This document shows positions 3,485-64,000 of a stretch of 64,000 nt of DNA, in pieces; the first letter of the stretch is position 1; every line of letters starts with the position of its first letter. The translations under genes were made by a program, and so were the position numbers. This stretch comes from Candidatus Wolframiiraptor sinensis (lineage in GTDB: Archaea > Thermoproteota > Nitrososphaeria_A > Caldarchaeales > Wolframiiraptoraceae): positions 145,736-209,735 of the forward strand of contig JALNKA010000002.1 of NCBI GenBank assembly GCA_023261815.1, in the 5' to 3' direction. The notes under the pieces were generated by a model, which was given only the letters and a program-made list of their open reading frames with translations, was not told the origin of the DNA and ran no database searches.

Positions 3485-4641
3485 AGCTGCCTTCTCCTCA
3501 GTATTGACTCGAGCTCGGCTTGGAGTATCGTCGCCGGGATTCCCGGGAGCGAGACGTATGATCTTCTCCCCTTAGCCCCCTCGCTTCTCACGTTTATCCT
3601 GATTATTCCCAGGTCGTCGAGCCTCTGGAGATGCTCCCAGAAGCTCGTGTAGGCTCTAGGCTCGGCCGAGTATTCCTCGCAGACGAGCTGATAGTTCTGA
3701 TACAGGTCCGCTGCCGTGACGTATGCTTGCCCGCCTTGAAGCCCTCTCGTGAGCGCCAGTAGGATTAGCCGCTCATGCTGGCTGAGGAACTCGAGGTGCT
3801 CCCTTCTTATCGCCGGGTAAATGCTCGCCGCAGCCTTTCTCACGTGCTCCGGAGCGATCACTCTTGAGCTCTCGGCCTCAGCGTATTTTCCAGCCCTCCA
3901 TAATATATCGAGGGCGTATCTCGCGTCTCCCCTCTCGCCTGCCAGATCCGCGATGAGCCGCAGCGACTCCTCTAGGAGGACTCCGGGCATCAGCGCCTCC
4001 TCAGCCCTGAACTTGAGGATATCGTATAGCTGGCCGCTATCGTACTCGCTCAGGTGTATGATGTTTCCTAGGAGGGAGCTTCTGGTGCTCTCATCCAGCA
4101 GGTCGAAGATCTCGGGGTTCCTGGTGATCAGTATCGTCGAGATTCTCGGAGGCCTCTCCCTCTCCTCACCTATCCTGCTCAGCAGGTATAGGAGGTCCTC
4201 GCCCCTGCTTATCAGCAAATCCACCTCGTCTAAGGCGATGATCGCGTAAATGTCCTTCAGCTCGAGGTAGTTTAGGATTCTGTGGAGAAGCTCCTCATTC
4301 GCGAAGCCCCGCGCCCCAATCCTGGCCCTGAGCTGCTCGATGAGCCTAGAAAGTATCAGGAACGTGCTCCTGCTTATCCTGCAGTTCACGTAAAGAAACC
4401 TCAGGTTTACGCCGCTTCTCCTCGCCTCCTCCTCGGCCGTGGCACCGAATAGCTTGACGAGCGCGCTCTTTCCGGTTCCAACGGAGCCGGTCACGATAAC
4501 CCTCGTGGATATTGTGGAGGAGCCGGATATCACTCCGCTGAAAAACGTTTTGAGAAGCCTGAACTCGGCATCCCTGTGCGGGAGCCTGCTCGGAATATAG
4601 TCTGGGGAAAGCTTCTCCTCGGCCTTGAAGACCCTCACCAT
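3481..4641 (-). CDS. cdc6: Orc1/Cdc6 replication initiator AAA+ ATPase
   Basis: LSPDYIPSRLPHR, GSVGTGKS, YVNC, LDEVD and GDARYALD motifs plus a C-terminal winged helix. Confidence 0.95.
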   Translation of the reverse strand: MVRVFKAEEKLSPDYIPSRLPHRDAEFRLLKTFFSGVISGSSTISTRVIVTGSVGTGKSALVKLFGATAEEEARRSGVNLRFLYVNCRISRSTFLILSRLIEQLRARIGARGFANEELLHRILNYLELKDIYAIIALDEVDLLISRGEDLLYLLSRIGEERERPPRISTILITRNPEIFDLLDESTRSSLLGNIIHLSEYDSGQLYDILKFRAEEALMPGVLLEESLRLIADLAGERGDARYALDILWRAGKYAEAESSRVIAPEHVRKAAASIYPAIRREHLEFLSQHERLILLALTRGLQGGQAYVTAADLYQNYQLVCEEYSAEPRAYTSFWEHLQRLDDLGIIRINVRSEGAKGRRSYVSLPGIPATILQAELESILRRRQL

Positions 4642-7552: not shown

Positions 7553-10500
7553 GCCCGAGATAGAGGAGAGGATGCTCAACTTCTTCAAGCAGGAGAAGTA
7601 TAGATCGCTACTCGCGACGGCGGCGGCTCAGAGGAGGCAGTCCATACTCGTGGACCACAGCGACCTCATATCATTCGATGAGGAGCTGAGCCACCTGATA
7701 GTCAATGATCCGCTGAAGTATCTCCCGATACTCGATAGGTCGGCGTATAAGCAGCTCCAGGTCGAGGATCCGGATTACGCGGCGGCGCTTAAGGAGTTCA
7801 AGGCCAGGGTCTTCAACCTGCCGGACAGGGTACCGATCAGGGAGATAAGATCACATCACCTGGGCAAGCTGATAGCCGTGGACGGGATAATGGTCAGGGC
7901 GAGCACGGTTCGCCCCATACTCAAGACCGCGGTCTTCGCCTGCTCCACCTGCGGCGCGAAATACTTCTCATCGGAGGACCCTTCAGTGCCGAGGCTCAAG
8001 ACGCCGGAGAGGTGTGAGAGATGCAGGGGCAGGAAGTTCGAGATGATCCCGGAAGAGAGCGAGTACATGGACTTCCAGCTAGTCGGCATCCAGGAGAAGC
8101 CCGAGGACCTTCCGCCCGGCCAGATACCGAGGGTGATAGACGTCGAGCTTAAGGGCGATATCGTCGATCTTGCGAGGCCCGGTGATAGAGTTATAGTAAC
8201 CGGGATTTTGAGGACCATGCCGGAGCGCGACGCGAACACGCCTAGAAGAACGTCGAAGATGTATCTCGAGGCAGTCAGCATAGAGACCGCGAGCAAGGAG
8301 CCCGAGAGCCTCATCATAACCCCGGAAGAGGAGAAGCTCTTCAGGGAGATGGCGAGGGACCCGGAAATCCATAAAAAGCTCGTTGAATCCATCGCGCCCA
8401 GCCTATACGGGCTTGAGCACGTGAAAAAGGCCGTCATGCTACTTCTCTTCGGCGGAACGCCAAAGCAGTATCCAGATGGCACGAAGATACGCGGCGACAT
8501 CCACCTGCTACTTGTCGGAGACCCAGGAACAGGAAAAAGCCAGCTACTAAAATACGTCGCAATGATGGCGCCCAGAGGAATATACACGTCCGGAAGGGGA
8601 TCGACAGCAGCCGGCCTATGCGTCTCGGGGGACACCTTAATTTACACTGATGAGGGCATAACTCCGATACGGGATCTTGTCGAGAGAAATATGATGATGG
8701 GGTCTCAGAAGTTGCGTGAGGGGATAAGCATTGCGAAAAATCCGAAAATAGTAAAGATAATCGCTCCTTCGGAGGGACTTAAGAAGATTGACGTCCATAA
8801 TGCCGTTCAGTATTACAAGCTGAAAGCTAAAAGAGTAATCAGAATAACCACGGTTCTGGGTAAATCCATCGCTTTAACGGATGAGACTCCAATCTTATGC
8901 TCCGAAGATGGAAAGAATTTGAGATGGAAAAAGGCCTCCGAGGTGAAGGTTGGAGAATATGTGGCCCTCGCTGCAAAGCTCCCGGATCTAGAAGGTGATT
9001 GGAGGAAATGCTTCTATGATCTCGTAGGAGATGACGTCTTTGTTGAGATAGATCCGGACAAGCTAAATGAGCTGCTGAATAAGCTCTCAAATAAATTCGG
9101 ATCACTAAGAACTGCTGCATGGTATTTAGGCATACCGGAGGATTACCTATATTACCGCTGGAGGAGGTTGCTGCGCCTGAGGCTAAGCGCCCTAAAGACA
9201 ATTCTCAAAGAGCTCGGAATGAGTTTTGATGAAATAATACCGTACATCAAATCCGTAGCTTACAAGAGCTACAGAGGAACTGAGAGGGTGGTGATACCAC
9301 CCTATCCGAATGAGGAGTTCTTGGAATTTCTAGGAGACATATACTCGGATGGCTGCCTCATTAGAGATCAGCGCAGGAAGGAGTCCTACGTAATTCACTA
9401 TTCATCAGGTTCTATTAATGACGCGAGAAATTACGTCAAGAGGGTTAGGAGGCTTTTCGGACTTAATCCTAAAATTGAAAAAGATCCGCGCGAAGAGTGT
9501 TATATCGTCCGATTCTCCAACAAAATTGTGGCAAGGCTTCTAAGAGCATTTGGAGTCCCGGTTGGGGATAAGGGGATAAACCTAGCAATCCACCCAATTA
9601 TACACATTATGCCCAGAAGGCTTGTTGGTAGATTTCTCAGGCAGCTGTTCACCAATGATGGCGGGGTTATTAGTGGGAAATGCGTCTCTCTCTCAACGTC
9701 GAGCAGAATGCTTGCCGAGCAGGTTGACATGCTCCTCGGAAAATTCGGGATAATATCATCGATCCGAAGAAGGAGTCCGAGTGAAAGCCGCATCAATAAC
9801 AAGCCCGTGAGAAGAGAGCAATTGTATGAGGTGTCAATATACGACCTAGAATCCCTAAGAGTGTTCTTAAGGGAGATAGGATTCAGTAATCCGAAGAAGC
9901 TCCGGAAGCTACTCGATTTAATTAAGGCGAGAAGTGGGGGTCACAATAACTTTAAGCGCCTGAGCGATGAGATCATCTTAGTTAAGGTCAAGAGTGTGAC
10001 GGTGGAGGAGGTGAATGAGGTCTATGATTTAACGGTGAATGATTCACACGCGTTCGTAGCTAACAAGTTTATAGTCCATAATACTGCGGCGGTCGTAAGG
10101 GATAGTAGTGGGGGCATGATGCTCGAGGCGGGTGCGCTGGTGTTGGCGGATATGGGCGTTGCGTGCATAGATGAGATCGATAAGATGAGGCCCGAGGATA
10201 GGGTTGCGCTGCATGAGGCCATGGCCCAGCAGACGATTAGCATAGCCAAGGGCGGGATCGTTGCCACGCTCAATGCCAGGACCTCGATACTGGCGGCCGC
10301 GAACCCGACGCTCGGCAGATACGACCCCTACAGGAGCTTCACGGATAATGTTGATCTCCCGATAACGATACTCTCGAGATTCGACCTGATCTTCGTTCTC
10401 AGGGATGAGCCCAATCGCGATCTCGATGAAAAGCTAACAGATCACGTTCTGGGGCTCCAGTCTAGGTCGGTCGCGGTGACCTCGCCGCCCATCAAGCCCG

Positions 10501-55479: not shown

Positions 55480-56301
55480 ATGTCTTGGATGGAGGCGGCT
55501 CGGCTGCTCGGCCTATCGCAGATCATGAAAATCGGTCTCCTCAAGGCGGTGGGCTTCGAGGAGGCGGTTTTGAGGCTACCCGACGGCATGCGGATCATCA
55601 TGGACCTTAACCAAGTTCCCGGCGCACTATACAACATACTGCACATCTATTATCACGAGGATTACTCTTTCACCTCGGAGGCGATTCCTAGGCCCGGCTG
55701 GAAGATAGTTGATGCTGGAGCATATCTCGGGGCTTATACGATGTGGTCGGCGCGGAGGGTTGAGCCGGGCGGGGAGGTGGTGGCGCTGGAGCCGCATCCG
55801 AGAAGCAGGGAGCTGCTCCAGAGAACGATAATGTTCAATGGCCTGAGGAATGTCAGGGTTCTGCCATACGCTCTCTCGATTCACGAGGGTAGAGGCAAGC
55901 TCTACTCCCCGAGATATAGGGCTCTGGCATCGCTGAGGAGGGAGCACGCCGAGTACTTCTGCGGAGAAGTCGTGGAGGAGCATGAGGTGGAGTGTGTGAG
56001 CCTGAGAACGCTTCTGAGCATGCTCGGTAGCCGGGAGATCGATCTCCTCAAGCTGGATATAGAGGGCCTCGAATACGATGTTCTAAGGAGCTCAACCGAC
56101 GTGCTAGGCCGCATCAAGAGAATTGCCGTCGAGGTTCATCTTGATTCATGCTCGATCCCGGAGCTCGACCAGCTCCTAAGAGACAACGGCTTCGAGGCGA
56201 TCATAAAATTCGATGCGCGCGCCGAGAACCAGGCATTCATAATAGCCCTGAGAAAAAGTTGGGATGAAATGCCGGCGCTCTCAAAGTATGAAAGTTCCTA
56301 G
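55480..56301 (+). CDS. FkbM-family methyltransferase
   Basis: VDAGAYLG, ALEP and IDLLKLDIEG.E..VL motifs. Confidence 0.9.
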   Translation: MSWMEAARLLGLSQIMKIGLLKAVGFEEAVLRLPDGMRIIMDLNQVPGALYNILHIYYHEDYSFTSEAIPRPGWKIVDAGAYLGAYTMWSARRVEPGGEVVALEPHPRSRELLQRTIMFNGLRNVRVLPYALSIHEGRGKLYSPRYRALASLRREHAEYFCGEVVEEHEVECVSLRTLLSMLGSREIDLLKLDIEGLEYDVLRSSTDVLGRIKRIAVEVHLDSCSIPELDQLLRDNGFEAIIKFDARAENQAFIIALRKSWDEMPALSKYESS

Positions 56302-57749
56302 ACTATTAATACGAGCTCCGGGATTGGTGGGCTCTTTCTAGGATCGAGCTGGATCGCGTAGAGCGGCGTCCTCGGCTTTACCCCGTGGATCAGCATGCAG
56401 CCGTGCCGGCGGGTTATCTTGAGGTGCACATCCGCTATGGGCGCAAGCCTCTCGATGAGCCATGGCATCGTCGGCTTAACGATCCAGAGCATGAGGCAGC
56501 GGAGAGCCCTTACGAGGTCCTGGGCTGTTAAGAGCAGCTTCAAACCCTCCTCGCCAGCTGAGTGGGCAATCCTATCAACGCCCATGGCCGCGATAGTTGG
56601 CTCTCCGGTCTCCTTCACCAGCCTTAACATTAGTTCCGTAATCCTTCTGCCGACGTCATCGGCGAATCTAAGATCGACCTCTATGACATTGGGCATCTTC
56701 TCGATCACCGCGCCCCTTTCATAGAATATGTGGTGGCGCTCAAAGAATGCTTGCTCATCCACTTCATAGACGCGAAGTGCCTCCCTTAACAAGTCTGGGC
56801 TCACCCCGCCGCTGGGGATGACCAGCTGATGCCTACCCTTGAGAACGAAGCTGGCCATCATCGGGCCGACGATCACATTATACTCTCTGAAGGTGAGCCT
56901 CGGATCAATCTCCACAAGCACGGTTGACCCGGGCTGATAGCCTCCAAGCTCGCGATCCAGGTCGAGTATGCCGGTCGTATAGGCTCCCGGCGGATCTGGC
57001 GGCGGCCAAAGCTCGGATGACCCGTGCTCAGGAGTCTTCGCAGGCGCGGGTATTCTAGTTGGAGGAATAACCCTAAAGCCATCCTTAATAGTGCAGATCA
57101 AGCGGGGGTTTCGAAGCTCAGCCCCCCTAAGCTTCAGTATCTCCAACCGCCGAATAGGCCTCCTCTCAAAATATCTCCTCCTCAAGCATAGAACGCCATC
57201 CGCGACATACTCCTCGAAATCCGGCGCCTCGGCAAGAGGCTCGCCCTCCTTAATCAATAAAGTCGTGCACCTGAGCTTCTCGAGAATCTTGGAGAGCAGA
57301 GTCTGCAGGAAGATTCTCGCCTCGCCGGGGCTCTTAAACTGCTGCTTAAGAGCCGTGAAGGAGTCTATAACAAGCCTCCTAGCGCCGAGGGATTCCACGC
57401 GCTCGAGCACCGTGTTCACGGACATCGAAACACCCTCCTCAGCCGTCAAGGGAATCCACAAGTGCTCAGCAAGCCCCTCCATCATCAGCCTCTCAAAATC
57501 CATGCCGAACCTCGAGGCGAGCTGGAGAAACCTCTCCCTACTCTCGCAGGTGGAAACGTAAACCCCGGGCTCACCGCCAACCGAAGCGCCGCGATAAATG
57601 AAAGTCATCCCAAAAACAGTCTTACCGGTTCCAGGGAGCCCGGCGACAAGGATTAGCCCGCCTTCCGGAAAACCCGGAATAATATCATCAAGACCCGGCA
57701 CATGAGTCCTAACAAAAAGCCCCCTCCTACTCACCGCCCGGGCCCCCAA
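56298..57749 (-). CDS. KaiC/RecA-superfamily ATPase with degenerate second domain (GvpD-like), paralog of 5347-6771
   Basis: GLPGTGKT, LVIDSFTAL, YVADGV, LKLRG, PPPDPPGAYTTG and ERLAPIADVHLKITR.HGC..HG.KP.TPLYAIQ motifs. Confidence 0.85.
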   Translation of the reverse strand: MGARAVSRRGLFVRTHVPGLDDIIPGFPEGGLILVAGLPGTGKTVFGMTFIYRGASVGGEPGVYVSTCESRERFLQLASRFGMDFERLMMEGLAEHLWIPLTAEEGVSMSVNTVLERVESLGARRLVIDSFTALKQQFKSPGEARIFLQTLLSKILEKLRCTTLLIKEGEPLAEAPDFEEYVADGVLCLRRRYFERRPIRRLEILKLRGAELRNPRLICTIKDGFRVIPPTRIPAPAKTPEHGSSELWPPPDPPGAYTTGILDLDRELGGYQPGSTVLVEIDPRLTFREYNVIVGPMMASFVLKGRHQLVIPSGGVSPDLLREALRVYEVDEQAFFERHHIFYERGAVIEKMPNVIEVDLRFADDVGRRITELMLRLVKETGEPTIAAMGVDRIAHSAGEEGLKLLLTAQDLVRALRCLMLWIVKPTMPWLIERLAPIADVHLKITRRHGCMLIHGVKPRTPLYAIQLDPRKSPPIPELVLIV

Positions 57750-57991
57750 ACATAGCCTATAACCGCTTCGTCATTCCACTTAACATCGCTTATAGCCATA
57801 CCTTAATAGTTTTTTCACGAAAATCGAAGACGAAAGTCTGACTCAGCAGACTCATAAGCGCTTCATCGAATCAAGCTGGGATAACAATTCGCCAAACGTA
57901 CAAACCACTTACGGCGAGTTGAATACCTCGAGAGCCTCGATAATGAGAATGTGGAGCTTCACGAGCCGACGCCAGCCATCATCGCGAAAGC

Positions 57992-58375
57992 TCATACCAT
58001 CGTAACCGATTTTCCCAAGCTCATCGCCGCTTTGGCCTGCTCACTATCGGCAGTTATCAGCCTATCCGAGCTAACAATATACAGTGAATCGTATATCGTT
58101 ATCTGCAGCTTTAACGATGCCTCAAACGCCTGGCCGAGAAAGTTGGTGGCTCTCTTCACGTCCAATACGTTGAAAAGATCCACCAATTCCCCATATCTCT
58201 CCTCAGCCTCCGCAAGCTTAATCTCCCCTCTCATAAAGTACTTCAATACAGTGTTCGCCACCTCTATCATAGCCAGATCGAGCGTCTCACCATCCTCCAG
58301 GATTTTCCTACCAGCCTCCTCGTAGTTCTCCTCGCGCATTATCAGCTTGGCTATAACGGATGCGTCAAGCACCAT
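57992..58375 (-). CDS. vapC: PIN-domain toxin (VapC)
   Basis: MVLDASVIAK, EVAN, TIYDSLYI and LITAD motifs; overlaps the antitoxin stop. Confidence 0.9.
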   Translation of the reverse strand: MVLDASVIAKLIMREENYEEAGRKILEDGETLDLAMIEVANTVLKYFMRGEIKLAEAEERYGELVDLFNVLDVKRATNFLGQAFEASLKLQITIYDSLYIVSSDRLITADSEQAKAAMSLGKSVTMV

Positions 58376-58592
58376 CCCTATCCTCCCTAATAGCCCTAAC
58401 AACCGAGCCCGCCGGAAGAATTCTAGAAGGCTTCTTCTCCAAAATCCTCCGAACAACCTCGGACCTCTCGACCTCCCTAACCCTTCTCTCAACGAAAGCC
58501 CTAAGCTCCGACGGCCAGTCAACAACATCCTTAAGCCTATCTACCTTCCTCTTCAACTCCCTCGAAACCTTGAAGCTAATCACTTCGCTCAT
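58365..58592 (-). CDS. vapB: RHH antitoxin (VapB)
   Basis: MSEVISFKV..ELK..VDWPSELR...IREDRD; upstream of the PIN gene. Confidence 0.87.
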   Translation of the reverse strand: MSEVISFKVSRELKRKVDRLKDVVDWPSELRAFVERRVREVERSEVVRRILEKKPSRILPAGSVVRAIREDRDGA

Positions 58593-58612
58593 GGTAAACC
58601 AATAGGTATACC
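58593..58612. promoter_or_regulatory. Candidate antitoxin operator (two GGTAWACC near-palindromes)
   Basis: GGTAAACC-AATA-GGTATACC immediately 5' of the vapB ATG. Confidence 0.5.
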
Positions 58613-58701
58613 AGAAAATAAACTTTTAGATTACTTCGGCCCTTACAAGACTCCCCGAATCCTAGCTTAGATCCCATCCGAGCTTCAAAGGCTTATATCC
58701 T

Positions 58702-59022
58702 ATGGTGTTGTTCAATCAATACCTTATGGTGATTAACGTGGAAACAATTAAGATAGACAAGCAGGGTAGACTCGTCATACCTGCAAGCATAAGAAAAGCT
58801 CTCGGGATCTCCGGCGAGGTCGAGGCCATAATCAGGGTCGACGGAAATAGAATAATAATCGAACCCGCGTCGACAGACCTCGAAAGAGCAATCAATGAAT
58901 GGATCGAGAAAGCCCTAAGCATAAACCTGCAACCATACACAGAGAATACCGAAGAAAGCTGGAAGTGGATGAACAATGAGTATGCTAAGAGAAAGCTTGG
59001 CATATCCGGAGGGAGTAATTGA
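58702..59022 (+). CDS. AbrB/MazE-family DNA-binding protein (antitoxin)
   Basis: KIDKQGRLVIPASIRKALGI...G.RIIIEP motif; start may be 58726 or 58738. Confidence 0.88.
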   Translation: MVLFNQYLMVINVETIKIDKQGRLVIPASIRKALGISGEVEAIIRVDGNRIIIEPASTDLERAINEWIEKALSINLQPYTENTEESWKWMNNEYAKRKLGISGGSN

Positions 59023-59045
59023 CGTCGGGATAATAGTAGTCAAGC
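58982..59045 (+). pseudogene. Truncated PIN toxin 5' fragment
   Basis: MLRESLAYPEGVIDVGIIVV overlaps the AbrB 3' end, then runs into unrelated AT-rich sequence. Confidence 0.55.
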
Positions 59046-59605
59046 TTGATATCTCAGCAAATTTGGCTATCAGCGGGCCTAAGATTACCTATAGAGTGCT
59101 TTTAAAAGAAATTCAATTTACGAAATTCTTTTGAATCAGCTCCTCAGGCATATACTTTTGTACATTATTTATGATGATTTTTAGAACTCGAATTGCAACG
59201 GCATCACCATAATCTAATCCATATTTTCCGGCGAATTATTCATAAGAGCATCATCACAAAAAAGCAAAGTTAAGAACATGTAAAGGAACGCGACTTAATA
59301 ACTTAAAAGAGGATGGGAAAGAAAATTTTGCCGCCAACCTTAGGGGCAATAATTACACTATTCTTCGGCGCCAACCACGGCAACCTCCCTCGAAGAAGGA
59401 AAAGATATCATATGGCGGAGGACGGAAGATGGCTGCTTACTATTATTTGCTTGAAAGCCTTTAGACCAAATCCACACAGGTAATAGTCTATGGTAATAGT
59501 CTATTGTGATAAAGATTTTGACGCCGTAGATTGAATAAAAAGATACGCACGTGAAGAACAATTTGAGAGCATAGGAATAAACTTACTCTCCCAGAATCAC
59601 TCAAG

Positions 59606-60115
59606 CTATAAAATATCCCGTGGATGAGAGATGCGGAGCTTAAGCAGCTCGCTTGCTATCTCCGCTTTTGAGAGCAGTTCCTCATCACCCGTCACGAAAA
59701 ACCCGACATCGTAAAATTCGTTTAATATTTTGGCATAGCATATGTGAATGAGATCTAATGCTCTCAACTTCAATCTTCCTGCGTATCTAAATGCCAAATA
59801 ATACTCGAGCGGCATCCTAATTTTCCGCGCATGAAAATCAAGTGTTAGAGTGTATAGGTGCGGCACAACGTTAAGCTTACAGTCCTTGACTATGAAACCC
59901 ACCAGCGCATCCAAGTCCTTCTCAAACCCCTGCGGAATCAACAGCTCATCCAGAAGCCTAGACAAAACTGCATAAAGTTCCACTAGAGTTAACGGTGACG
60001 CATAGAACTTAACATCATCCCGACTAAACAGTCTCTCCGAATGCTCATACAGCTCATCATCAGGCTTATACCTGGCTATAATCACACTAGTATCAACGTA
60101 ACAACCACTATCCAT
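59606..60115 (-). CDS. vapC: PIN-domain toxin (VapC)
   Basis: YVDTSVII, TLVEL, LRALDLIH and FVTGD motifs. Confidence 0.88.
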   Translation of the reverse strand: MDSGCYVDTSVIIARYKPDDELYEHSERLFSRDDVKFYASPLTLVELYAVLSRLLDELLIPQGFEKDLDALVGFIVKDCKLNVVPHLYTLTLDFHARKIRMPLEYYLAFRYAGRLKLRALDLIHICYAKILNEFYDVGFFVTGDEELLSKAEIASELLKLRISHPRDIL

Positions 60116-60383
60116 CCCTCTGCTCCCTAACAATATCCACAGCCCTCCTAGAAGAAGTAATGGTAAACGGCACCAGACCAGAACGCCTACGCCCCTCAAG
60201 CACCTCCATCAACCCCGAAGACCTAACCCCCACAACATCCCCCAAAAACTCATCAGCCCTCACCTCCCCAAGCAGCAAATCCTCCAAAATAGACCTCAAA
60301 GTCACCCCACGCTTAACCGCCAACAACTTAGCCCTCCGCCACAACTCCGAATCAATCTTAATACTCGTAACCTTATCGACCAT
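60108..60383 (-). CDS. RHH-type antitoxin
   Basis: KVTSIKIDSELWRRAKLLAV.RG.TL..ILE and AVDIVREQR motifs; overlaps the vapC start. Confidence 0.82.
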   Translation of the reverse strand: MVDKVTSIKIDSELWRRAKLLAVKRGVTLRSILEDLLLGEVRADEFLGDVVGVRSSGLMEVLEGRRRSGLVPFTITSSRRAVDIVREQRDG

Positions 60384-60579
60384 ACAAAAATAACATAAAT
60401 ACGGCATTACTTAAGTATATACTACCAACCATCAAACATCAAATAAGAACAACCCCTTATAAACCCCCCACACTTATAACTGGAGGAAAATGCAGAGCAA
60501 TGAGCATGCTAGCATCACAAAATAGAAAGATCTAGAAGAGGTTACTAAAGGTGGAAAGCCGAGCCTGATAAGGATGAAT

Positions 60580-60933
60580 TTAGATTATCAGTAGCTTGAA
60601 GATCAGCGAGAGCATAATTGTGAATATGATGGAAGTTTCCGCGGTCATTATCCACACGGCCTTACTTATAGAGCCCATGACCTTCATCCTCTCAACCAAT
60701 AAGGCCACATCTTTACTTATCAAGTCTATGGCCTCCGTCCTCTCGACTAATATGGCTAATGCCCCATTCGCCTTCATCACGCCATTCAATAACATTTCCT
60801 CAAAATTGCCCGGATTATCTTTCCCCTTCTCATTCCTCCTTTCCGCGAGACACTTCTGAATAAGCTCAACGGACTCTCGAAGACTCTTCACCACCTCTTT
60901 CGAATCCCTTTTACCCATCCAACCACCACTCAT
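60580..60933 (-). CDS. Hypothetical coiled-coil protein with C-terminal TM anchor
   Basis: 117-aa ORF with an internal 17-aa repeat and a hydrophobic C-terminus. Confidence 0.6.
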   Translation of the reverse strand: MSGGWMGKRDSKEVVKSLRESVELIQKCLAERRNEKGKDNPGNFEEMLLNGVMKANGALAILVERTEAIDLISKDVALLVERMKVMGSISKAVWIMTAETSIIFTIMLSLIFKLLII

Positions 60934-61809
60934 GCAGCGTGCATATAATAAATTTCCACGAAGGAGCCAATTTTCAGGACAATAACATTCTCCACGCCAA
61001 GCCTCACGATGTGCAATTCATGCGAGATTATTAGAGAGGATTGAAAAGATCTACTGTGAAGCCTCTTCAGGGCCGCAAGCTCGGCCTAAAGCTCGTGAAT
61101 CCGCCTAACCTCCTCGCATTTCAGCCCTCTCAGCCTCAACCTATTCCTCCAAAATCATTTTTCCGGGTTGGCTTGAAGTATGCGCCCGGATCTTCAGGTG
61201 CCAGAGGTGCGGCAGGACGTTCATAAACCACGGAAAATATGGGAGGCGCATGGCCCGCAAGCATTAATCATAAATCAAAAGAAGACAGATCAATACACAT
61301 ATGTAAGACATCTTCAAACCCCTCACAATCTATAACACATACACTGAGGAAGCGATAAAAATGGAAAGTTCACGAGAATAATTCATGTATAAAGCTCCTC
61401 CGGGATAAAAGATCATCCAAGCTTTCCCATGAGAAAGGATGAACAACCGAACACCCTTCAAAAGAGCGCTTAGAAAAATGCTCGGCGAAGCCGTAAAGAA
61501 ATTAATACCTGCTCCCAGGCGATAGCCGATCATCCTCAAACAGCTCAAAACTAAAAAGGCGCCCAATAAACCCCAAGACAGCACACCCGCACAAACCCTC
61601 ACCAAACTCTAACAGCAAAAATCCAAAACCAGGCTCCCAAGCACCCCACACGACAAAACCGAAAAGCCCAAAAGCCCGCTCAAACCCCCACAAAAACGGC
61701 CTAAAACAGCTCCCAATAAACGCCCAAACCAGATAGCCCAGCCCAACCATCGTATTTAAAAGATTTATAAACCCCGCAAAACCACCTTAAAAGGAAGCCC
61801 AACAAGGAG

Positions 61810-62391
61810 ATGAAGAACATGAGCAAAACACCCGAACCAACCATCGAAATACAAAACGTCGTAGCCTCAGTAACAATAAACCAGAAACTAGACCTAGCAC
61901 AAATACAAAAAGCATTCCCAGAAACAGAATACAAGCCAGCACAATTCCCAGGCCTAGTATTCAGACTAGCAACACCAAAAACAGCAACACTAATCTTCTC
62001 ATCAGGAAAAATGGTATGCACAGGAGCAAAAAGCGAAAAAGAATCAATAAGAGCAGTACAAACAGTAATCAAACTACTCGAAAAAGAAGGATTCATAATC
62101 AAACACGAACCAATAATCGAAATACAAAACATAGTCGCATCAATCGACCTACACGGAAAAATCAACCTCGAACAAGCAGCCCTAAAACTAGAAGGAACAA
62201 TGTACCAACCCGAACAATTCCCCGGGTTAATATACAGGATGATGGAGCCGAAAGTTGTGATCTTGATGTTTGCTAGCGGTAAGCTCGTGTGCACCGGGGC
62301 CAAAACGGAGAGAGAAGTATATGAAGCGGTTTACAAGTTGAAGAAAATTTTGGAGGAAAACGATCTGATCACCTACGCCGCTTCCAAGTAG
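61810..62391 (+). CDS. tbp: TATA-box-binding protein
   Basis: Two repeats of IEIQN.VAS, Y.P.QFPGL..R and L.F.SGK.VCTGAK; AAGGAG before the ATG. Confidence 0.97.
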   Translation: MKNMSKTPEPTIEIQNVVASVTINQKLDLAQIQKAFPETEYKPAQFPGLVFRLATPKTATLIFSSGKMVCTGAKSEKESIRAVQTVIKLLEKEGFIIKHEPIIEIQNIVASIDLHGKINLEQAALKLEGTMYQPEQFPGLIYRMMEPKVVILMFASGKLVCTGAKTEREVYEAVYKLKKILEENDLITYAASK

Positions 62392-62414
62392 TATCGTGCG
62401 GCTCGTAATAATCT

Positions 62415-62431
62415 TACATCTATTAGATGTA
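62415..62431. repeat. Perfect inverted repeat between convergent tbp and cas4
   Basis: TACATCTA-T-TAGATGTA followed by T-tracts; terminator or binding site. Confidence 0.4.
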
Positions 62432-62575
62432 GCTAACACTTTTTAACTCTCTTTTTCGGAGTCTTCTGTTTTCCTAATTTTCAGATCTCATCCGTCATTT
62501 TATCCCCTTAAGTGGTCAGGATGTAAGTTTTTCAGCATCATCAAAGCTTTTATAATTTTATTGACAAATGTGGTT

Positions 62576-63172
62576 TTAGCCATGACAGAATTTCCTATAA
62601 AAGCAGCTTCTGCACTTCTTATCCATCACCGGTTCAGGAGGTTCTCTTAGCTCTAATGCTCTATGTATTCGCTGGACCAAGTTTATTGAGTATCTTCTTA
62701 GCTGGCTGGTAAATCTCCTCTCAAACCACGTATTCGATTTCTTATAGAACACCGCTATCTTGTATACTGGTTGATTGAATACATCCTCAACGGCTAACGC
62801 ATAGATTGATGTTTGATACAGATGATTCGGAAAAAGTTTCCTAGATTCCGCCGCCTTTATTTCCAGAACATGCAGCTTATTGTTGGACCAGTAGATTGTG
62901 TCCACAACCCCTGAAATCATGTACTTTTTGGATGAGACCTCTACCCCGAAGAGCATTTTATCGACGCGTATTCTCTTACGGGCAAGCAGGGTCTTTCTCT
63001 CCTCATACCTATCCGAGTCCTTAGTAAATTCCCTTATACCATCTTGCATTAACTCTGTTACCGGCTCCCTTATTCCAAGTATATACTTGTAGTAAAATGT
63101 CGATGGACAGAAGATATAATCTTTTACGTGCATTAGGGTAATGTAGCGTTCTTCCTCCTCCATTTCCCACAC
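62576..63172 (-). CDS. cas4: CRISPR-associated exonuclease Cas4
   Basis: YIFCP, G.VD, LEIK, Q...YAL and C..C.Y...C motifs. Confidence 0.93.
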   Translation of the reverse strand: MWEMEEEERYITLMHVKDYIFCPSTFYYKYILGIREPVTELMQDGIREFTKDSDRYEERKTLLARKRIRVDKMLFGVEVSSKKYMISGVVDTIYWSNNKLHVLEIKAAESRKLFPNHLYQTSIYALAVEDVFNQPVYKIAVFYKKSNTWFERRFTSQLRRYSINLVQRIHRALELREPPEPVMDKKCRSCFYRKFCHG

Positions 63173-63454
63173 CTACAGGAATACTATTTCTTCGCCTTCT
63201 TCGTATTCTATTAGTTGACCGATTATCTTCCTGCTAGAGATGTCCGCTTCGCATATGATGAATATTTGTACGTTTCCCCTATTGGAGCCCAGGATGTTCT
63301 TTAATTTTATCTCTAAGTTCTTTCTCGTTTGTGAATCGATCACGCCGAGGAAAGCACTTTTCTGAATCCTGGTCAAGCCGGCCTCCTTGCATGCTTGCGC
63401 TATCTTCATCCTGATATCGTTGTCTGTGATATCGTATATTACTAGTGTATACAT
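63173..63454 (-). CDS. cas2: CRISPR-associated endoribonuclease Cas2
   Basis: LVIYDI.D...R..IA..C...GL.RIQKSAF.G motif. Confidence 0.96.
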   Translation of the reverse strand: MYTLVIYDITDNDIRMKIAQACKEAGLTRIQKSAFLGVIDSQTRKNLEIKLKNILGSNRGNVQIFIICEADISSRKIIGQLIEYEEGEEIVFL

Positions 63455-63458
63455 CTTC

Positions 63459-64000
63459 CTAGATCACTGCATTAAAACATTTGTATCCATCCGTGTAGCC
63501 GAGTAGGTACTTTGCGAGCCTGATTGGTTGGAGCCTGATGTGCGCCTTTATTGGAGCGGTTCTATTCATGAAAGTGACATTTTTCTCTAGAACATTGAAG
63601 AAGATTTTGAGGAGCTCGTCTCTAAAAGGCTTCGTAAGTTTTCCTTCCTCATCAACCATCTGGACGTTCCTTGGCTGTTTTATAAAGCGTGCTATCAGCG
63701 GGAGATCCACGATAGGCTGCCTAAACTCCTCCATCAAGTCCATTACCAGGCTTGGGCGCCTATTACTATCCTCATGAAGATATCCGATGAACGGATCTAG
63801 CCCGGACAGCTCAATGGCGTACCACACCTGATACATTAGCAGCGTGTATAAGTAGTTGAGGGAGAGGTTCAATGGATCCTCCGGTCTTTCGTATTTCTTT
63901 CTCCTTCCAGTAAACTCTATCTCCTTTGGAACTATTTTAGCCACAGCGTCCCAGTAATATTTCGAGGCCTCAGCCTCCTTGGAGATCAGCCAACCCCTGA
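63459..64000 (-). CDS. cas1: CRISPR-associated integrase Cas1, 5'-truncated by window edge
   Basis: Frame open to the edge (EAEASKYYW); DPLN..LNYLY, GLDPFIGYLH and SLVMDLMEEFR motifs. Confidence 0.96.
   Translation of the reverse strand, partial: RGWLISKEAEASKYYWDAVAKIVPKEIEFTGRRKKYERPEDPLNLSLNYLYTLLMYQVWYAIELSGLDPFIGYLHEDSNRRPSLVMDLMEEFRQPIVDLPLIARFIKQPRNVQMVDEEGKLTKPFRDELLKIFFNVLEKNVTFMNRTAPIKAHIRLQPIRLAKYLLGYTDGYKCFNAVI

What the first reader, a model, noticed from the sequence alone, without database searches (positions are those of the whole stretch)
61500..62391. Extreme A/C strand skew that ends abruptly inside the TBP gene
Seen: in TBP codons 1-138 (61810-62223) I count no T-ending codons and only 7 G-ending ones, 4 of them Met. 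From CCC|GGG at about 62223 onward, G/T endings are common. The upstream non-coding DNA from about 61500 is also A/C-rich. Inference: a strand-specific mutational process (C>T and A>G deamination on the minus strand while single-stranded) acted under purifying selection. The sharp edge would mark a recombination junction or the limit of the exposed tract, making the gene a mosaic.
Basis: partly seen in the sequence, partly recalled or inferred. Interest (0 to 1): 0.72.

Follow-up and report, generated by a model that had tools for sequence, protein, structure and literature searches.

The report
Strand-polar recoding of an archaeal TBP gene
In a hot-spring archaeon, nearly every freely changeable base in the first two thirds of the essential TBP gene has become A or C, and this stops at a point that is also a DNA rearrangement site and, in a sister family, an intron site.

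Summary
TBP codons 1-138 (61810-62223) have third bases A93 C38 G7 T0. The next 55 codons are ordinary. No other ORF in the 1.18 Mb genome comes close.

It is not codon choice. A VapB-like gene on the opposite strand (60108-60380) is 87 of 90 G/T-ending, so the same physical strand is A/C-rich.

It is not an assembly chimera. Contigs from three other studies bridge 62220. The block recurs at the same locus in at least six related Caldarchaeales genomes or contigs.

Against an unskewed congener and outgroups, the changes are G>A and T>C. Transversions accumulate normally. This points to a long-maintained directional bias filtered by selection.

The edge at codons 133-141 coincides with three things:
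- the start of four isolated TBP 3' fragments in relatives;
- a flip to G/T-ending codons in the most skewed relatives;
- a 28-nt intron-like insert in a sister family.

Best reading (about 0.4): a recurrently broken or recombined site with strand-polar biased repair. Minus-strand deamination through antisense transcription, or an origin-like site, remain rivals.

The parts
61810..62391 (+). TATA-binding protein gene (193 codons plus stop); the only TBP match in the assembly
   Evidence: Pfam TBP E 3.7e-62; one match in the own genome
61810..62223 (+). A/C-saturated coding block, codons 1-138
   Evidence: Third bases A93 C38 G7 T0; cumulative A+C excess peaks at 62223
62224..62391 (+). TBP 3' module, codons 139-193 plus stop. 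Ordinary to mildly G/T-ending. Probably has a different history from the 5' block
   Evidence: Third bases G22 C14 A10 T9. Its protein is 96% identical to another genus (G016) but 88% to congeners, the reverse of the 5' part. An RNA-library contig joins a 97%-identical copy of 62200-62429 to a G-ending upstream sequence
62203..62232 (.). Switch or junction region, codons about 132-141. An imperfect inverted repeat around QFPGL. The position equivalent to the 28-nt insert of family f3 lies between 62218 and 62219. CCCGGG is at 62221-62226
   Evidence: Stem found (12 pairs, 62232-62203). Alignment A2 places the insert between GAACAAT and TCCCCGGG. Isolated fragments in relatives begin at codons 132-141
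61488..61809 (.). Non-coding A/C-rich tract upstream of TBP. Includes the promoter-like BRE/TATA element at 61755-61768
   Evidence: A134 C113 G41 T34. Best sense-strand hit of a promoter matrix built from this genome lies at -55 from the ATG, score 8.3, above the 99.9th background percentile of 7.0. Not alignable between species beyond about -60, yet A/C-rich in each
60064..60485 (.). Second A/C-rich block on the same physical strand
   Evidence: 200-nt A+C up to 0.775; base-level profile with a sharp right edge near 60480
60108..60380 (-). VapB-like ribbon-helix-helix antitoxin gene whose own coding strand is G/T-saturated
   Evidence: Third bases G51 T36 C2 A1. Homologues in G033 and G026 are unskewed. 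No Pfam hit, so the name is from sequence resemblance and the adjacent PIN gene
59606..60199 (-). PIN-domain (VapC-like) toxin gene, moderately skewed
   Evidence: Pfam PIN E 1.3e-8; plus-strand A+C at third positions 0.66
56260..61750 (.). Variable DNA between the conserved FkbM-type methyltransferase gene and the TBP promoter. Absent from congener G002; replaced by a 2.7 kb helicase insert in G007. Carries KaiC-like ATPase, two PIN, MazE-like and VapB-like genes
   Evidence: blastn synteny breaks; Pfam; deletion variants 59992>61060 and 60269>60565 in other samples
62576..63998 (-). cas4, cas2 and partial cas1, running to the contig end
   Evidence: Pfam Cas_Cas4, CRISPR_Cas2, Cas_Cas1; the window ends at the contig end

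Best explanation
What it is (shown). A tract of about 0.75 kb (61488-62223), plus a second block at 60064-60485, in which nearly every selectively free site on the + strand has been driven G>A and T>C. The state is held as an equilibrium in several related Caldarchaeales lineages. It ends at a fixed point in TBP codons 133-141.

How it most likely works (inferred, about 0.4). That point is a recurrently broken or recombined site: a short hairpin-forming stretch that is an intron site in a sister family and the start of rearranged TBP 3' copies in congeners. Each break is resected 5'>3'. The 3' tail (+ strand on the left, minus strand on the right) pairs with another genome copy. Mismatches are then handled asymmetrically. 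G:T pairs are cut and converted, while A:C pairs are tolerated, which is the published in vitro specificity of archaeal NucS/EndoMS. New A or C alleles on the tail strand spread among copies and new G or T alleles are erased.

Over long times this gives A/C on the + strand left of the site and G/T right of it, fading with resection length. Selection keeps the protein unchanged.

In this window the 3' module may in addition have been replaced by a copy brought in by recombination, which sharpens the edge.
For: Shown:
- Physical-strand specificity. TBP is A/C-ending and the opposite-strand VapB-like gene is G/T-ending, 87 of 90 codons.
- Direction. G002>G007 over nt 18-405 shows 79 differences: G>A 47, T>C 11, A>G 1, C>T 1, other 19. 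Outgroup-polarised changes: G>A is 27 of 37 (G000), 24 of 28 (G007) and 25 of 33 (G013).
- Equilibrium, not one event. G000 versus G007 in the block: 121 comparable codons, 100 same, 4 transitions, 17 transversions. In the 3' part: 45 codons, 18 same, 17 transitions, 10 transversions.
- Recurrence with lineage-specific proteins in four genera. A/C at third positions of codons 43-132 is 0.80-1.00 in G000, G007, G013, L029, L112, G043 and G022, against 0.43-0.55 in G002 and in 7 of 7 genomes of genus g3. Eighty wider TBP loci have mean 0.51 and sd 0.07.
- A fixed junction. Four isolated TBP 3' fragments begin at codons 132-141. Contigs end 81-456 nt past TBP in G007, G013, G045/L029 and G043. 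TBP was not found in 7 of 13 congeners.
- Polarity flip. G/T at third positions of codons 142-180 is 0.73-0.84 in G007, G013, L112 and G043, against 0.41 in G002. Spearman rho is 0.64 over 20 non-independent genomes. Derived C>T counts of 3, 4 and 2 against T>C 0 in the 3' part.
- Gradient. In weakly skewed genomes the A/C run sits next to the junction (G006 codons 105-127, G016 codons 96-130).
- The same base position carries a 28-nt frame-breaking insert in 3 of 3 examined g7 genomes. Its RNA fold is -33.1 kcal/mol, z -6.8, with two bulges at the junctions.
- NucS is present in this genome and in all genera that show the skew. It was not found in 3 of 3 g3 genomes, which are 96-99% complete.
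- EndoMS cuts G:T but not A:C (review PMC7343888, passages read).
- LAGLIDADG endonuclease domains are common in these genomes.
Against: - No nuclease, integrase or homing endonuclease was linked to the site. None was found next to the fragments in the ORFs examined (20 ORFs).
- PIN genes lying directly left of three isolated fragments are unskewed (0.44-0.49).
- In G022 the A/C run passes through the site to about codon 176, with no flip (G/T 0.08).
- The genome-wide NucS contrast is inconclusive. The 5' keto gradient at third positions is larger in NucS+ genomes (-0.032 to -0.045; G000, G007, G021) than in g3 genomes (-0.013; G019, G015). But NucS-less G019 still has 8 outlier ORFs of 746 and many extreme windows, while NucS+ G021 has none of 314. 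The g3 contrast is a single clade.
- Biased conversion by NucS on recombination heteroduplex is my inference. I found no paper stating it (listing).
- The VapB-like block lies about 1.8 kb from the site and needs its own source or an older adjacency. My test for a duplicated promoter there was weak.
Confidence: 0.4

Rival explanations
1. Minus-strand deamination during transcription. The minus strand is the non-template strand of strong leftward (antisense or divergent) transcription that starts near codon 135. It is repeatedly single-stranded at high temperature and accumulates C>T and A>G. The right-hand G/T part is the mirror image from rightward transcription.
For: - In congener G007, G/T-rich third-position windows are concentrated at gene 5' ends: 13 of 18 ORFs at or below 0.22, or 20 of 27 by rounded values.
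- All five genomes sampled show a 5' keto gradient on the coding strand.
- The VapB-like gene, first in its operon, fits this pattern.
- The A/C tract upstream of the TBP promoter fits upstream antisense transcription. Bidirectional initiation from one archaeal TATA box is documented in Pyrococcus (PMC6640164, abstract and passages).
- Non-template-strand C>T is an established process, as cited in PMC12999951 (passages).
Against: - TBP's own transcription predicts the opposite skew in the gene body.
- A promoter matrix built from 346 upstream regions of this genome finds no consistent high-scoring site on either strand at nt 400-430 in the skewed genomes (a weak test).
- The minus strand of 61488-62223 carries ten T5 runs, the archaeal terminator signal (from general knowledge), and the + strand carries none.
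- In G022 the flip sits between convergent genes, where no promoter is expected.
- Adenine deaminates far more slowly than cytosine (general knowledge), yet T>C is as complete as G>A.
Confidence: 0.2
2. An origin-like or other replication-linked site. DNA synthesis starts at the switch in both directions. Either the excluded lagging-strand templates are exposed or the first leading-strand DNA is made with low fidelity, giving keto-rich strands that run 5'>3' away from the site.
For: - The polarity (A/C left, G/T right on the + strand) is that of a bidirectional origin (inference from geometry).
- A similar flip flanks an intergenic region with repeated AATCCCGT..ACGGGATT palindromes next to aEF-2 in G007. 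Its homologue in this genome is the third A/C block.
Against: - There is no contig-scale amino/keto skew: 5-kb A+C is 0.48-0.54 along the 209 kb contig.
- The nearest Orc1/Cdc6 gene is 58 kb away.
- No repeated origin-box-like motif was found at the TBP switch.
- The effect is confined to about 1 kb.
- The flanks of TBP differ between species, which is unlike a conserved origin.
Confidence: 0.1
3. Pure mosaic. The skewed 5' block and promoter were imported from a replicon with extreme strand asymmetry, such as a single-stranded or rolling-circle element carrying a TBP piece. The edge is only the crossover point.
For: - The locus is flanked by variable DNA on both sides.
- The 5' and 3' parts of TBP have different nearest relatives at protein level.
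- The block is 91-92% identical in DNA between three species whose flanks are 74-83% identical.
Against: - The skewed blocks encode lineage-specific TBP proteins in each genus.
- The high DNA identity is explained by loss of transitions with normal transversions.
- Only 3' fragments occur in isolation, no 5' fragments.
- No relative of TBP or of the VapB-like protein was found in the viral collection.
Confidence: 0.07
4. Selection on RNA. An A/C-only TBP message is unstructured, or lacks G/U-containing cleavage motifs of the neighbouring PIN/HEPN toxins.
For: - Toxin-antitoxin genes crowd the TBP neighbourhood in several genomes.
- Synonymous sites (98% A/C) are more extreme than the upstream non-coding tract (77%).
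Against: - Untranscribed upstream DNA and an opposite-strand gene share the same physical-strand bias.
- The VapB-like protein itself has drifted toward amino acids with G/T-rich codons relative to its homologue.
- The bias stops inside the reading frame.
Confidence: 0.04
5. Assembly or sequencing artefact (a chimera at 62220).
For: - The block lies 1.8 kb from a contig end.
- Unitigs of two runs break at 62185-62213.
Against: - Contigs bridge 62220 in runs of three other studies: X2 62185-63072, X4 62002-63385 and X6 62002-62396.
- The same block with the same edge occurs in other species' assemblies.
Confidence: 0.01

Closest known systems
Transcription- and replication-associated strand asymmetry (C>T on the exposed strand; GC/keto skew)
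   Same: A strand-specific excess of transitions at neutral sites, with polarity that flips at a point source. The 5'-end keto enrichment seen genome-wide in these archaea is of this kind.
   Different: The amplitude is near saturation (98% at synonymous sites). The extent is under 1 kb. It lies in the body of a sense-transcribed essential gene with the opposite sign to that gene's own transcription. There is no contig-scale skew.
Biased gene conversion at recombination hot spots (GC-biased conversion in eukaryotes and bacteria)
   Same: A local, long-term directional fixation bias around a recombination-prone point. It is independent of selection on the product and decays with distance.
   Different: Here the bias is amino versus keto and is strand-polar, flipping at the site, rather than AT>GC on both strands. 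The proposed filter (a G:T-specific mismatch endonuclease) has not been described as a source of conversion bias. The library search found none (listing only).
Clustered strand-coordinated hypermutation (APOBEC kataegis, somatic hypermutation, G>A hypermutated retroviruses)
   Same: Strand-coordinated transitions in tracts of a few hundred bases next to a break or promoter.
   Different: Those are single bursts that hit all sites. Here non-synonymous sites are spared, both G>A and T>C are complete, transversions tick normally, and the state is shared by species.
Homing-endonuclease sites and archaeal bulge-helix-bulge introns with co-conversion tracts
   Same: A precise position in a highly conserved motif of an essential gene. 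It is occupied by a short intron-like insert in one family and is associated with recombination in another. LAGLIDADG genes are common in these genomes.
   Different: The window's TBP has no insert. No endonuclease specific for the site is known. Co-conversion alone does not predict a directional base bias.
Integration of mobile elements into the 3' part of a gene with duplication of the target's 3' end (as at tRNA genes)
   Same: Isolated copies of the TBP 3' end starting at one point, variable DNA and contig breaks beside the gene.
   Different: No integrase was found in the 20 neighbouring ORFs examined. No pair of flanking repeats was seen on one contig.

Membership tests
Transcription-associated mutational asymmetry | The non-template (coding) strand is enriched in G and T, strongest near the 5' end | tested here: not met
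   The TBP coding strand is A/C-enriched: 131 of 138 third bases. The feature is met for the VapB-like gene, 87 of 90 G/T.
Transcription-associated mutational asymmetry | A promoter that drives transcription with the skewed strand as non-template (here, an antisense promoter near codon 135) | tested here: inconclusive
   A matrix from 346 upstream regions finds no consistent site at nt 400-430 in the skewed genomes. The matrix is weak (median true-site score 5.7, 99.9th background percentile 7.0). Ten T5 runs lie on the minus strand. No strand-resolved RNA data were available.
Replication-origin skew switch | Sign change of keto skew at the site, with leading strands G/T-rich | tested here: met
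   A/C lies left and G/T right of codons 133-141 in G007, G013, L112 and G043. This is weak in this window (G/T 0.58) and absent in G022.
Replication-origin skew switch | Skew extends over the replichore; an initiator gene or origin boxes lie at the site | tested here: not met
   5-kb A+C is 0.48-0.54 along the contig. Orc1/Cdc6 is 58 kb away. No repeated boxes at the switch.
Integrative-element attachment site in a gene's 3' end | A second, isolated copy of the target's 3' end beginning at a fixed point | tested here: met
   G012, G008 (two contigs) and G016 contig 26 carry fragments starting at codons 132-141 with unrelated upstream DNA. None was found in this genome itself.
Integrative-element attachment site in a gene's 3' end | An integrase or recombinase gene within the inserted DNA | tested here: not met
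   Twenty neighbouring ORFs were scanned. Hits were PIN, DUF5615, a helicase and metabolic genes, with no integrase. The inserts are cut by contig ends, so absence is not shown.
Archaeal bulge-helix-bulge intron in a protein gene | A short insert that breaks the frame, flanked by pairing exon sequence, with both junctions in bulges separated by a short helix | tested here: not met
   The window has no insert. In G026, G029 and G032 a 28-nt insert with TAA lies at the equivalent of 62218|62219. The fold is -33.1 kcal/mol, z -6.8, with junctions in a 3-nt and a 6-nt bulge across a 5-bp helix. Splicing itself was not tested.
Single-burst enzymatic hypermutation (deaminase type) | All target bases in the tract are hit regardless of coding effect; there is a sequence-context preference | tested here: not met
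   First and second codon positions keep G and T. The protein is 97-98% identical to congeners. Retained G is followed by C in 20 of 32 cases in the non-coding tract, which is suggestive only.
Assembly chimera | No independent sequence spans the junction | tested here: not met
   Three runs of three other studies bridge 62220.

The most novel reading that the evidence does not exclude
A previously undescribed evolutionary force: strand-polar, amino/keto-biased gene conversion. It is created because the archaeal mismatch endonuclease NucS/EndoMS cuts G:T but ignores A:C in recombination heteroduplex. At a site that is cut again and again (here a hairpin and intron-homing position inside TBP), this drives every free site to A/C on the strand that forms the 3' tail. 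The effect is to recode an essential gene without changing its protein. It would also explain the smaller keto/amino blocks at promoters and tRNA genes in these genomes.
Probability: 0.15. Interest if true: 0.9.

Novelty: new variant of a known kind. Interest (0 to 1): 0.68.

Why it matters
- Scale of the effect. It is a natural case in which a local DNA process has rewritten about 98% of the synonymous sites of an essential, highly conserved gene. It has done so repeatedly in separate lineages and with a sharp polarity switch.
- A readable record. It records which strand is exposed, resynthesised or favoured at one defined site in uncultivated hyperthermophiles, where mutation and repair are hard to study.
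- A testable question. It allows a test of whether NucS-type mismatch repair biases recombination outcomes.
- Annotation. Such tracts produce long spurious antisense ORFs and very high cross-species DNA identity. They could be mistaken for codon adaptation, recent transfer or synthetic recoding.
- A side finding. The likely intron in the TBP gene of a sister family, if spliced, would add to the very short list of archaeal protein-gene introns.

Tried and rejected
- Codon adaptation: rejected. The opposite-strand gene has the mirror bias and no other ORF shares it.
- Import from a virus or plasmid: no relatives of TBP or of the VapB-like protein in the viral collection.
- A hidden RNA gene as driver or attachment site: no tRNA in 10 loci. 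There were only three sub-threshold Rfam hits (E 4.9-7.5) in 59500-64000.
- A repeat causing the contig breaks: the 274 nt beyond TBP in G007 occur once in G007 and in none of G013, G043 and G045.
- A duplicated TBP promoter next to the VapB-like block: the alignment shares only a 9-mer and ATGAGC, so it is not established.
- cDNA-mediated conversion: no RVT_1 reverse transcriptase was found in this 92%-complete genome.
- Loss of deamination repair: Endonuclease V is found in 39 of 41 relatives and UDG in 37 of 41, including this genome, with no pattern.
- NucS versus genome-wide block density: inconclusive.
The 3' part is about 165 nt and synonymous sites are saturated. Only identity tables were made.
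- RNA evidence: run X19, an RNA library that may contain DNA, has contigs identical to 61872-62198 and none over 58603-61818. Contigs give no strand and no absence, so nothing is concluded.
- Literature: searches (listings) found no report of such tracts, of TBP as an integration target, or of NucS-biased conversion. Passages were read in PMC12999951, PMC6640164 and PMC7343888. Supplements were not opened.
Full report
THE OBSERVATION.
The ORF at 61810-62391 (+) is a TATA-binding protein gene (Pfam TBP, E 3.7e-62). It is the only TBP match in the assembly. Codons 1-138 have third bases A93 C38 G7 T0. The seven G-ending codons are four ATG, two AAG and one CAG. Codons 139-193 have G22 C14 A10 T9.

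The cumulative A+C excess over 60900-62600 peaks at 62223, the last base of codon 138. The upstream non-coding 61488-61809 has A134 C113 G41 T34.

The chance of at least 131 of 134 non-Met codons ending in A/C is 1.4e-36. The window is the right end of a 209,735-base contig of a 1.18 Mb, 33-contig assembly with 54% G+C. In 200-nt windows the genome's A+C has mean 0.501 and sd 0.043. Five blocks passed 0.72/0.28. Two are runs of N. The other three lie on this contig: 61426-62227, 60064-60485, and a mild one 10 kb left of the window. Among 1030 ORFs, the most extreme 130-codon third-position window is 0.96 here, against 0.78 for the runner-up. So highly expressed genes do not share the bias.

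IT IS A PROPERTY OF ONE PHYSICAL STRAND.
The second block covers a VapB-like antitoxin gene on the minus strand (60108-60380). Its own third bases are G51 T36 C2 A1. On the + strand this is again A/C.

Homologues of that protein in two related genomes are unskewed (G31 A22 T19 C15, and A53 T22 G8 C4). The protein here has drifted toward Arg, Gly and Val codons relative to its 66%-identical homologue.

The other genes in the 5.5 kb between the conserved methyltransferase gene and TBP are moderately shifted the same way. Their plus-strand A+C at third positions is 0.59-0.66, against 0.45-0.57 in the three conserved genes to the left and 0.33-0.52 in cas4, cas2 and cas1 to the right.

IT IS REAL.
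Logan contigs of runs from three other studies bridge 62220: X2 62185-63072, X4 62002-63385 (8% diverged) and X6 62002-62396. All holders are hot-spring metagenomes. The nearest named TBP loci are Caldarchaeales MAGs.

IT RECURS.
In the same genus, G007 and G013 have the same block with the same right edge. Their first 135 codons have A82 C39 G13 T1 and A83 C35 G14 T3. G002 is ordinary, with G63 C31 A26 T15.

Across 80 TBP loci from public genomes, the third-position A+C fraction of the N-terminal part has mean 0.51 and sd 0.07. The single outlier is a Caldarchaeales MAG at 0.86. A metagenome contig (L112) and further family members add cases.

For codons 43-132 the A/C fractions are:
- G000 1.00, G013 1.00, G007 0.98, L029 (same as G045) 0.97;
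- L112 0.89, G043 0.88, G022 0.80, G016 0.75;
- G002 0.43;
- all seven genomes of genus g3, 0.43-0.55.

The skewed blocks encode the TBP variant typical of their own genus. So the state arose or is maintained in place in at least four genera.

DIRECTION AND TEMPO.
G002 and G007 are close enough for their flanks to align at 83%. Over nt 18-405 of TBP, G002>G007 shows 79 differences: G>A 47, T>C 11, A>G 1, C>T 1, other 19.

At sites where G002 and at least 60% of 11 outgroups agree, the derived changes are as follows:
- G000: 37 changes, G>A 27, T>C 2, A>G 2;
- G007: 28 changes, G>A 24;
- G013: 33 changes, G>A 25.

Between two skewed genomes, transitions have almost vanished while transversions are near normal. 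For G000 versus G007, the block has 121 comparable codons, 100 identical, 4 transitions and 17 transversions. The 3' part has 45 codons, 18 identical, 17 transitions and 10 transversions. That explains the 91-92% DNA identity of the block between species whose flanks are 74-83% identical. It also shows a maintained directional pressure with ongoing A<>C change, not a single burst.

Third positions A93:C38 here match purine:pyrimidine 89:46 in G002. This is what transitions alone would give.

THE EDGE.
Six lines converge on codons 133-141.

1. Isolated fragments. In four places in three relatives (G012, two contigs of G008, G016 contig 26), an isolated TBP 3' fragment begins at codon 132, 136 or 141, preceded by unrelated DNA with stop codons. 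The DNA before them carries PIN-family toxin genes. No integrase was seen among 20 ORFs scanned. One fragment (G008 contig 5) sits in front of the same sugar-binding protein gene that follows the intact TBP in L112, so it marks the native downstream side.

2. Assembly behaviour. Contigs end 81-456 nt after TBP in G007, G013, G045/L029 and G043. In G006 a contig ends at codon 127. TBP was not found at all in 7 of 13 congeners, three of them 91-93% complete. Both flanks of TBP differ between species. Other samples carry deletion variants just upstream.

3. Polarity flip. In the most skewed relatives the bias flips at this point. G/T at third positions of codons 142-180 is 0.84 (G013), 0.83 (L112), 0.78 (G043) and 0.73 (G007), against 0.41 in G002. 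Here it is 0.58. Spearman rho between the left A/C and right G/T fractions is 0.64 (p 0.002, 20 related genomes, not independent). Derived C>T changes number 3, 4 and 2, against no T>C, in the 3' part of the three congeners.

4. Gradient. In weakly skewed genomes the A/C-only run is the stretch next to the point (G006 codons 105-127, G016 codons 96-130). In stronger ones it reaches further left.

5. Different history of the 3' part. The 3' part of this window's protein is 96% identical to genus g4 but 88% to congeners. For the 5' part the figures are 85% and 97-98% (only 49 residues, so weak). One RNA-library contig joins a 97%-identical copy of 62200-62429 to a G-ending upstream sequence (a single contig).

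6. An insert in a sister family. In three genomes of family f3 (G026, G029, G032) the TBP gene is interrupted by a 28-nt insert. The insert contains TAA and is not a multiple of three. It lies exactly between the bases that correspond to 62218 and 62219 here. The exon sequences on either side are an 11-base inverted repeat. The RNA folds to -33.1 kcal/mol (z -6.8, 0 of 200 shuffles as good), with the two junctions in bulges across a 5-bp helix. This is the layout of an archaeal bulge-helix-bulge intron (the name rests on my knowledge of that motif). The window keeps an imperfect version of the inverted repeat (62203-62232).

EXCEPTIONS AND CONTRARY RESULTS.
- In G022 the A/C run crosses the point to about codon 176. 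The change of sign comes after the gene, between convergent genes.
- The displaced fragment in G012 is A/C-rich from about codon 160 to 50 nt past the stop.
- PIN genes immediately left of three isolated fragments are unskewed (0.44-0.49).

HOW GENERAL IS IT?
In 988,380 nt of G007, 13 blocks pass 0.70/0.30, including the two at TBP. Most are the first 100-300 nt of genes with a G/T-rich coding strand, together with the opposite bias upstream. Two flank tRNA genes. One flanks an intergenic region with repeated AATCCCGT..ACGGGATT palindromes beside aEF-2. One is a Thr-rich low-complexity coding run.

By ORF, 18 of 1039 have a 90-codon window at or below 0.22 A/C, and 13 of those windows start within the first 30 codons. 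Another 13 of 1039 reach 0.78 or more, mostly toward 3' ends (one search gave 27 and 14 with rounded values). In this genome the figures are 4 and 5 of 1251.

All five genomes sampled show a coding-strand keto gradient at the 5' end. A/C at third positions of codons 4-30 versus 150 and beyond:
- G000 0.473 versus 0.506;
- G007 0.433 versus 0.478;
- G021 0.518 versus 0.550;
- G019 0.510 versus 0.523;
- G015 0.502 versus 0.515.

So these archaea have a background of promoter-centred keto/amino asymmetry. The TBP block is its most extreme member, and it has the unusual sign for a gene body.

MECHANISM.
The geometry is clear. On each side of the switch, the strand that runs 5'>3' away from it is G/T-rich. 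Equivalently, the strand that ends 3' at it is A/C-rich. Four kinds of point source give that geometry.

(a) Divergent transcription with deamination of non-template strands. This explains the VapB-like gene and the tract upstream of the TBP promoter. Bidirectional initiation from archaeal TATA boxes is documented (PMC6640164). For the TBP body, however, it needs a strong antisense start near codon 135. A promoter matrix built from 346 upstream regions finds TBP's own promoter (scores 6.6-10.9) but no consistent site at the switch. The minus strand of the tract has ten T5 runs.

(b) An origin-like site. This is not supported by contig-scale skew, initiator proximity or repeats.

(c) Low-fidelity resynthesis from a recurrent break or nick. 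This fits if G:T mispairs dominate the errors.

(d) Biased handling of heteroduplex at a recurrent break. After 5'>3' resection the 3' tail is the + strand on the left and the minus strand on the right. If G:T mismatches in the tail-template duplex are cut and converted while A:C mismatches pass, then A and C alleles on the tail strand win in both directions of exchange. This gives exactly the observed polarity.

The required asymmetry is the published in vitro specificity of EndoMS/NucS: it cuts G:T, G:G, T:T, T:C and A:G, but not C:C, A:C or A:A (review PMC7343888, passages). NucS is present here and in 13 of 13, 3 of 3, 3 of 3 and 2 of 2 genomes of the genera that show the skew. It was not found in 3 of 3 genomes of g3, which never show it. 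That is one clade, and the genome-wide contrast is inconclusive.

By contrast, deamination of the exposed 3' tails at a break predicts the opposite polarity. The far slower deamination of adenine (general knowledge) also sits badly with T>C being as complete as G>A.

A break agent is not identified. Candidates are the hairpin itself, an intron-homing type endonuclease, or a recombinase of the cassettes. LAGLIDADG_3 domains occur in 31 of 41 relatives, with four hits here, and LAGLIDADG_1 in 8 of 41. No reverse transcriptase was found.

I put a break-centred, strand-polar repair or conversion process at about 0.4. Within that, the NucS-filter version is about 0.15 overall. Transcription-linked deamination is about 0.2, an origin-like site about 0.1, import from a skewed replicon about 0.07, selection on RNA about 0.04 and an artefact about 0.01. 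The rest is unassigned.

WHAT IS SHOWN AND WHAT IS INFERRED.
Shown:
- the counts;
- the strand specificity;
- the direction of change;
- the equilibrium character;
- the recurrence;
- the coincidence of the edge with fragments, flip and insert;
- the reality of the junction in independent samples.

Inferred:
- that the site is repeatedly broken;
- that the bias arises in repair or conversion;
- any role of NucS or a homing endonuclease;
- that the 3' module here was replaced;
- that the f3 insert is spliced.

VERDICT.
This is a genuine and striking feature. It is a new and extreme variant of localised strand-asymmetric sequence evolution. It is tied to a recombination and intron site inside an essential gene, and the mechanism is still open but testable.

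Noticed in passing
L344 (G026:C1:147300-148200) 118-724; also L345, L346: In three genomes of a sister family the TBP gene is split by a 28-nt insert carrying a TAA. The insert sits in codon 137, is flanked by an 11-base exon inverted repeat, and folds like a bulge-helix-bulge intron (-33.1 kcal/mol, z -6.8). If spliced, this is an intron in an archaeal TBP message. I know of none reported (recalled, no dedicated search).
   Followed up: partly
relatives G001-G040: NucS/EndoMS was found in every genus that shows the TBP skew (g1 13/13, g2 3/3, g4 3/3, g5 2/2). It was not found in genus g3 (0/3, 96-99% complete), whose seven genomes all have ordinary TBP genes. LAGLIDADG_3 domains are also nearly missing from g3 (1/3, weak). 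This is a single clade, so the pattern may be coincidence.
   Followed up: partly
L261 9355-10020 (G007 contig 5); G000 contig C10:135959-136300, outside the window: An intergenic region beside the aEF-2 gene carries three or four palindromes of the form AATCCCGT..ACGGGATT. It is flanked by A/C-rich DNA on one side and G/T-rich DNA on the other. It may be a replication origin or another protein-binding array.
   Followed up: no
L250 2319-2927 and L214 4217-4566 (G007): tRNA genes are flanked by the same bipolar amino/keto pattern as the TBP switch (A/C on the left, G/T on the right).
   Followed up: no
window 59992-61060 and 60269-60565: Contigs from other hot-spring samples skip these stretches, with 10 and 31 other letters in between. 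So the VapB-like gene and the 117-aa ORF are present or absent polymorphisms in the population.
   Followed up: no
window 61701-62303 (-), and equivalent places in G007, G013, L029, L112: A long antisense ORF (200 aa here) runs through the skewed block. It is open because a G/T-only wobble strand cannot make stop codons. A longest-ORF gene caller picks it instead of TBP (it did in my own script), which is an annotation trap.
   Followed up: partly
window 56298-60933: A variable island lies directly upstream of TBP. It carries a KaiC-like ATPase, two PIN toxins, a MazE-like gene, a VapB-like gene and an unknown 117-aa ORF. Related genomes carry other toxin-antitoxin sets (HEPN/nucleotidyltransferase pairs, PIN, DUF5615) at the same place.
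   Followed up: partly
window 62576-63998: A CRISPR adaptation module (cas4, cas2, partial cas1) converges on TBP and runs into the contig end. The 184-nt spacer holds a perfect 7-1-7 palindrome (62417-62431) and several T-runs on the TBP strand.
   Followed up: no
window 9627-9881 (C10:155362-155616): A LAGLIDADG_3 domain lies inside a 1170-aa open frame, probably an intein in a large protein. There is an Orc1/Cdc6 homologue at window 3529-3795.
   Followed up: no
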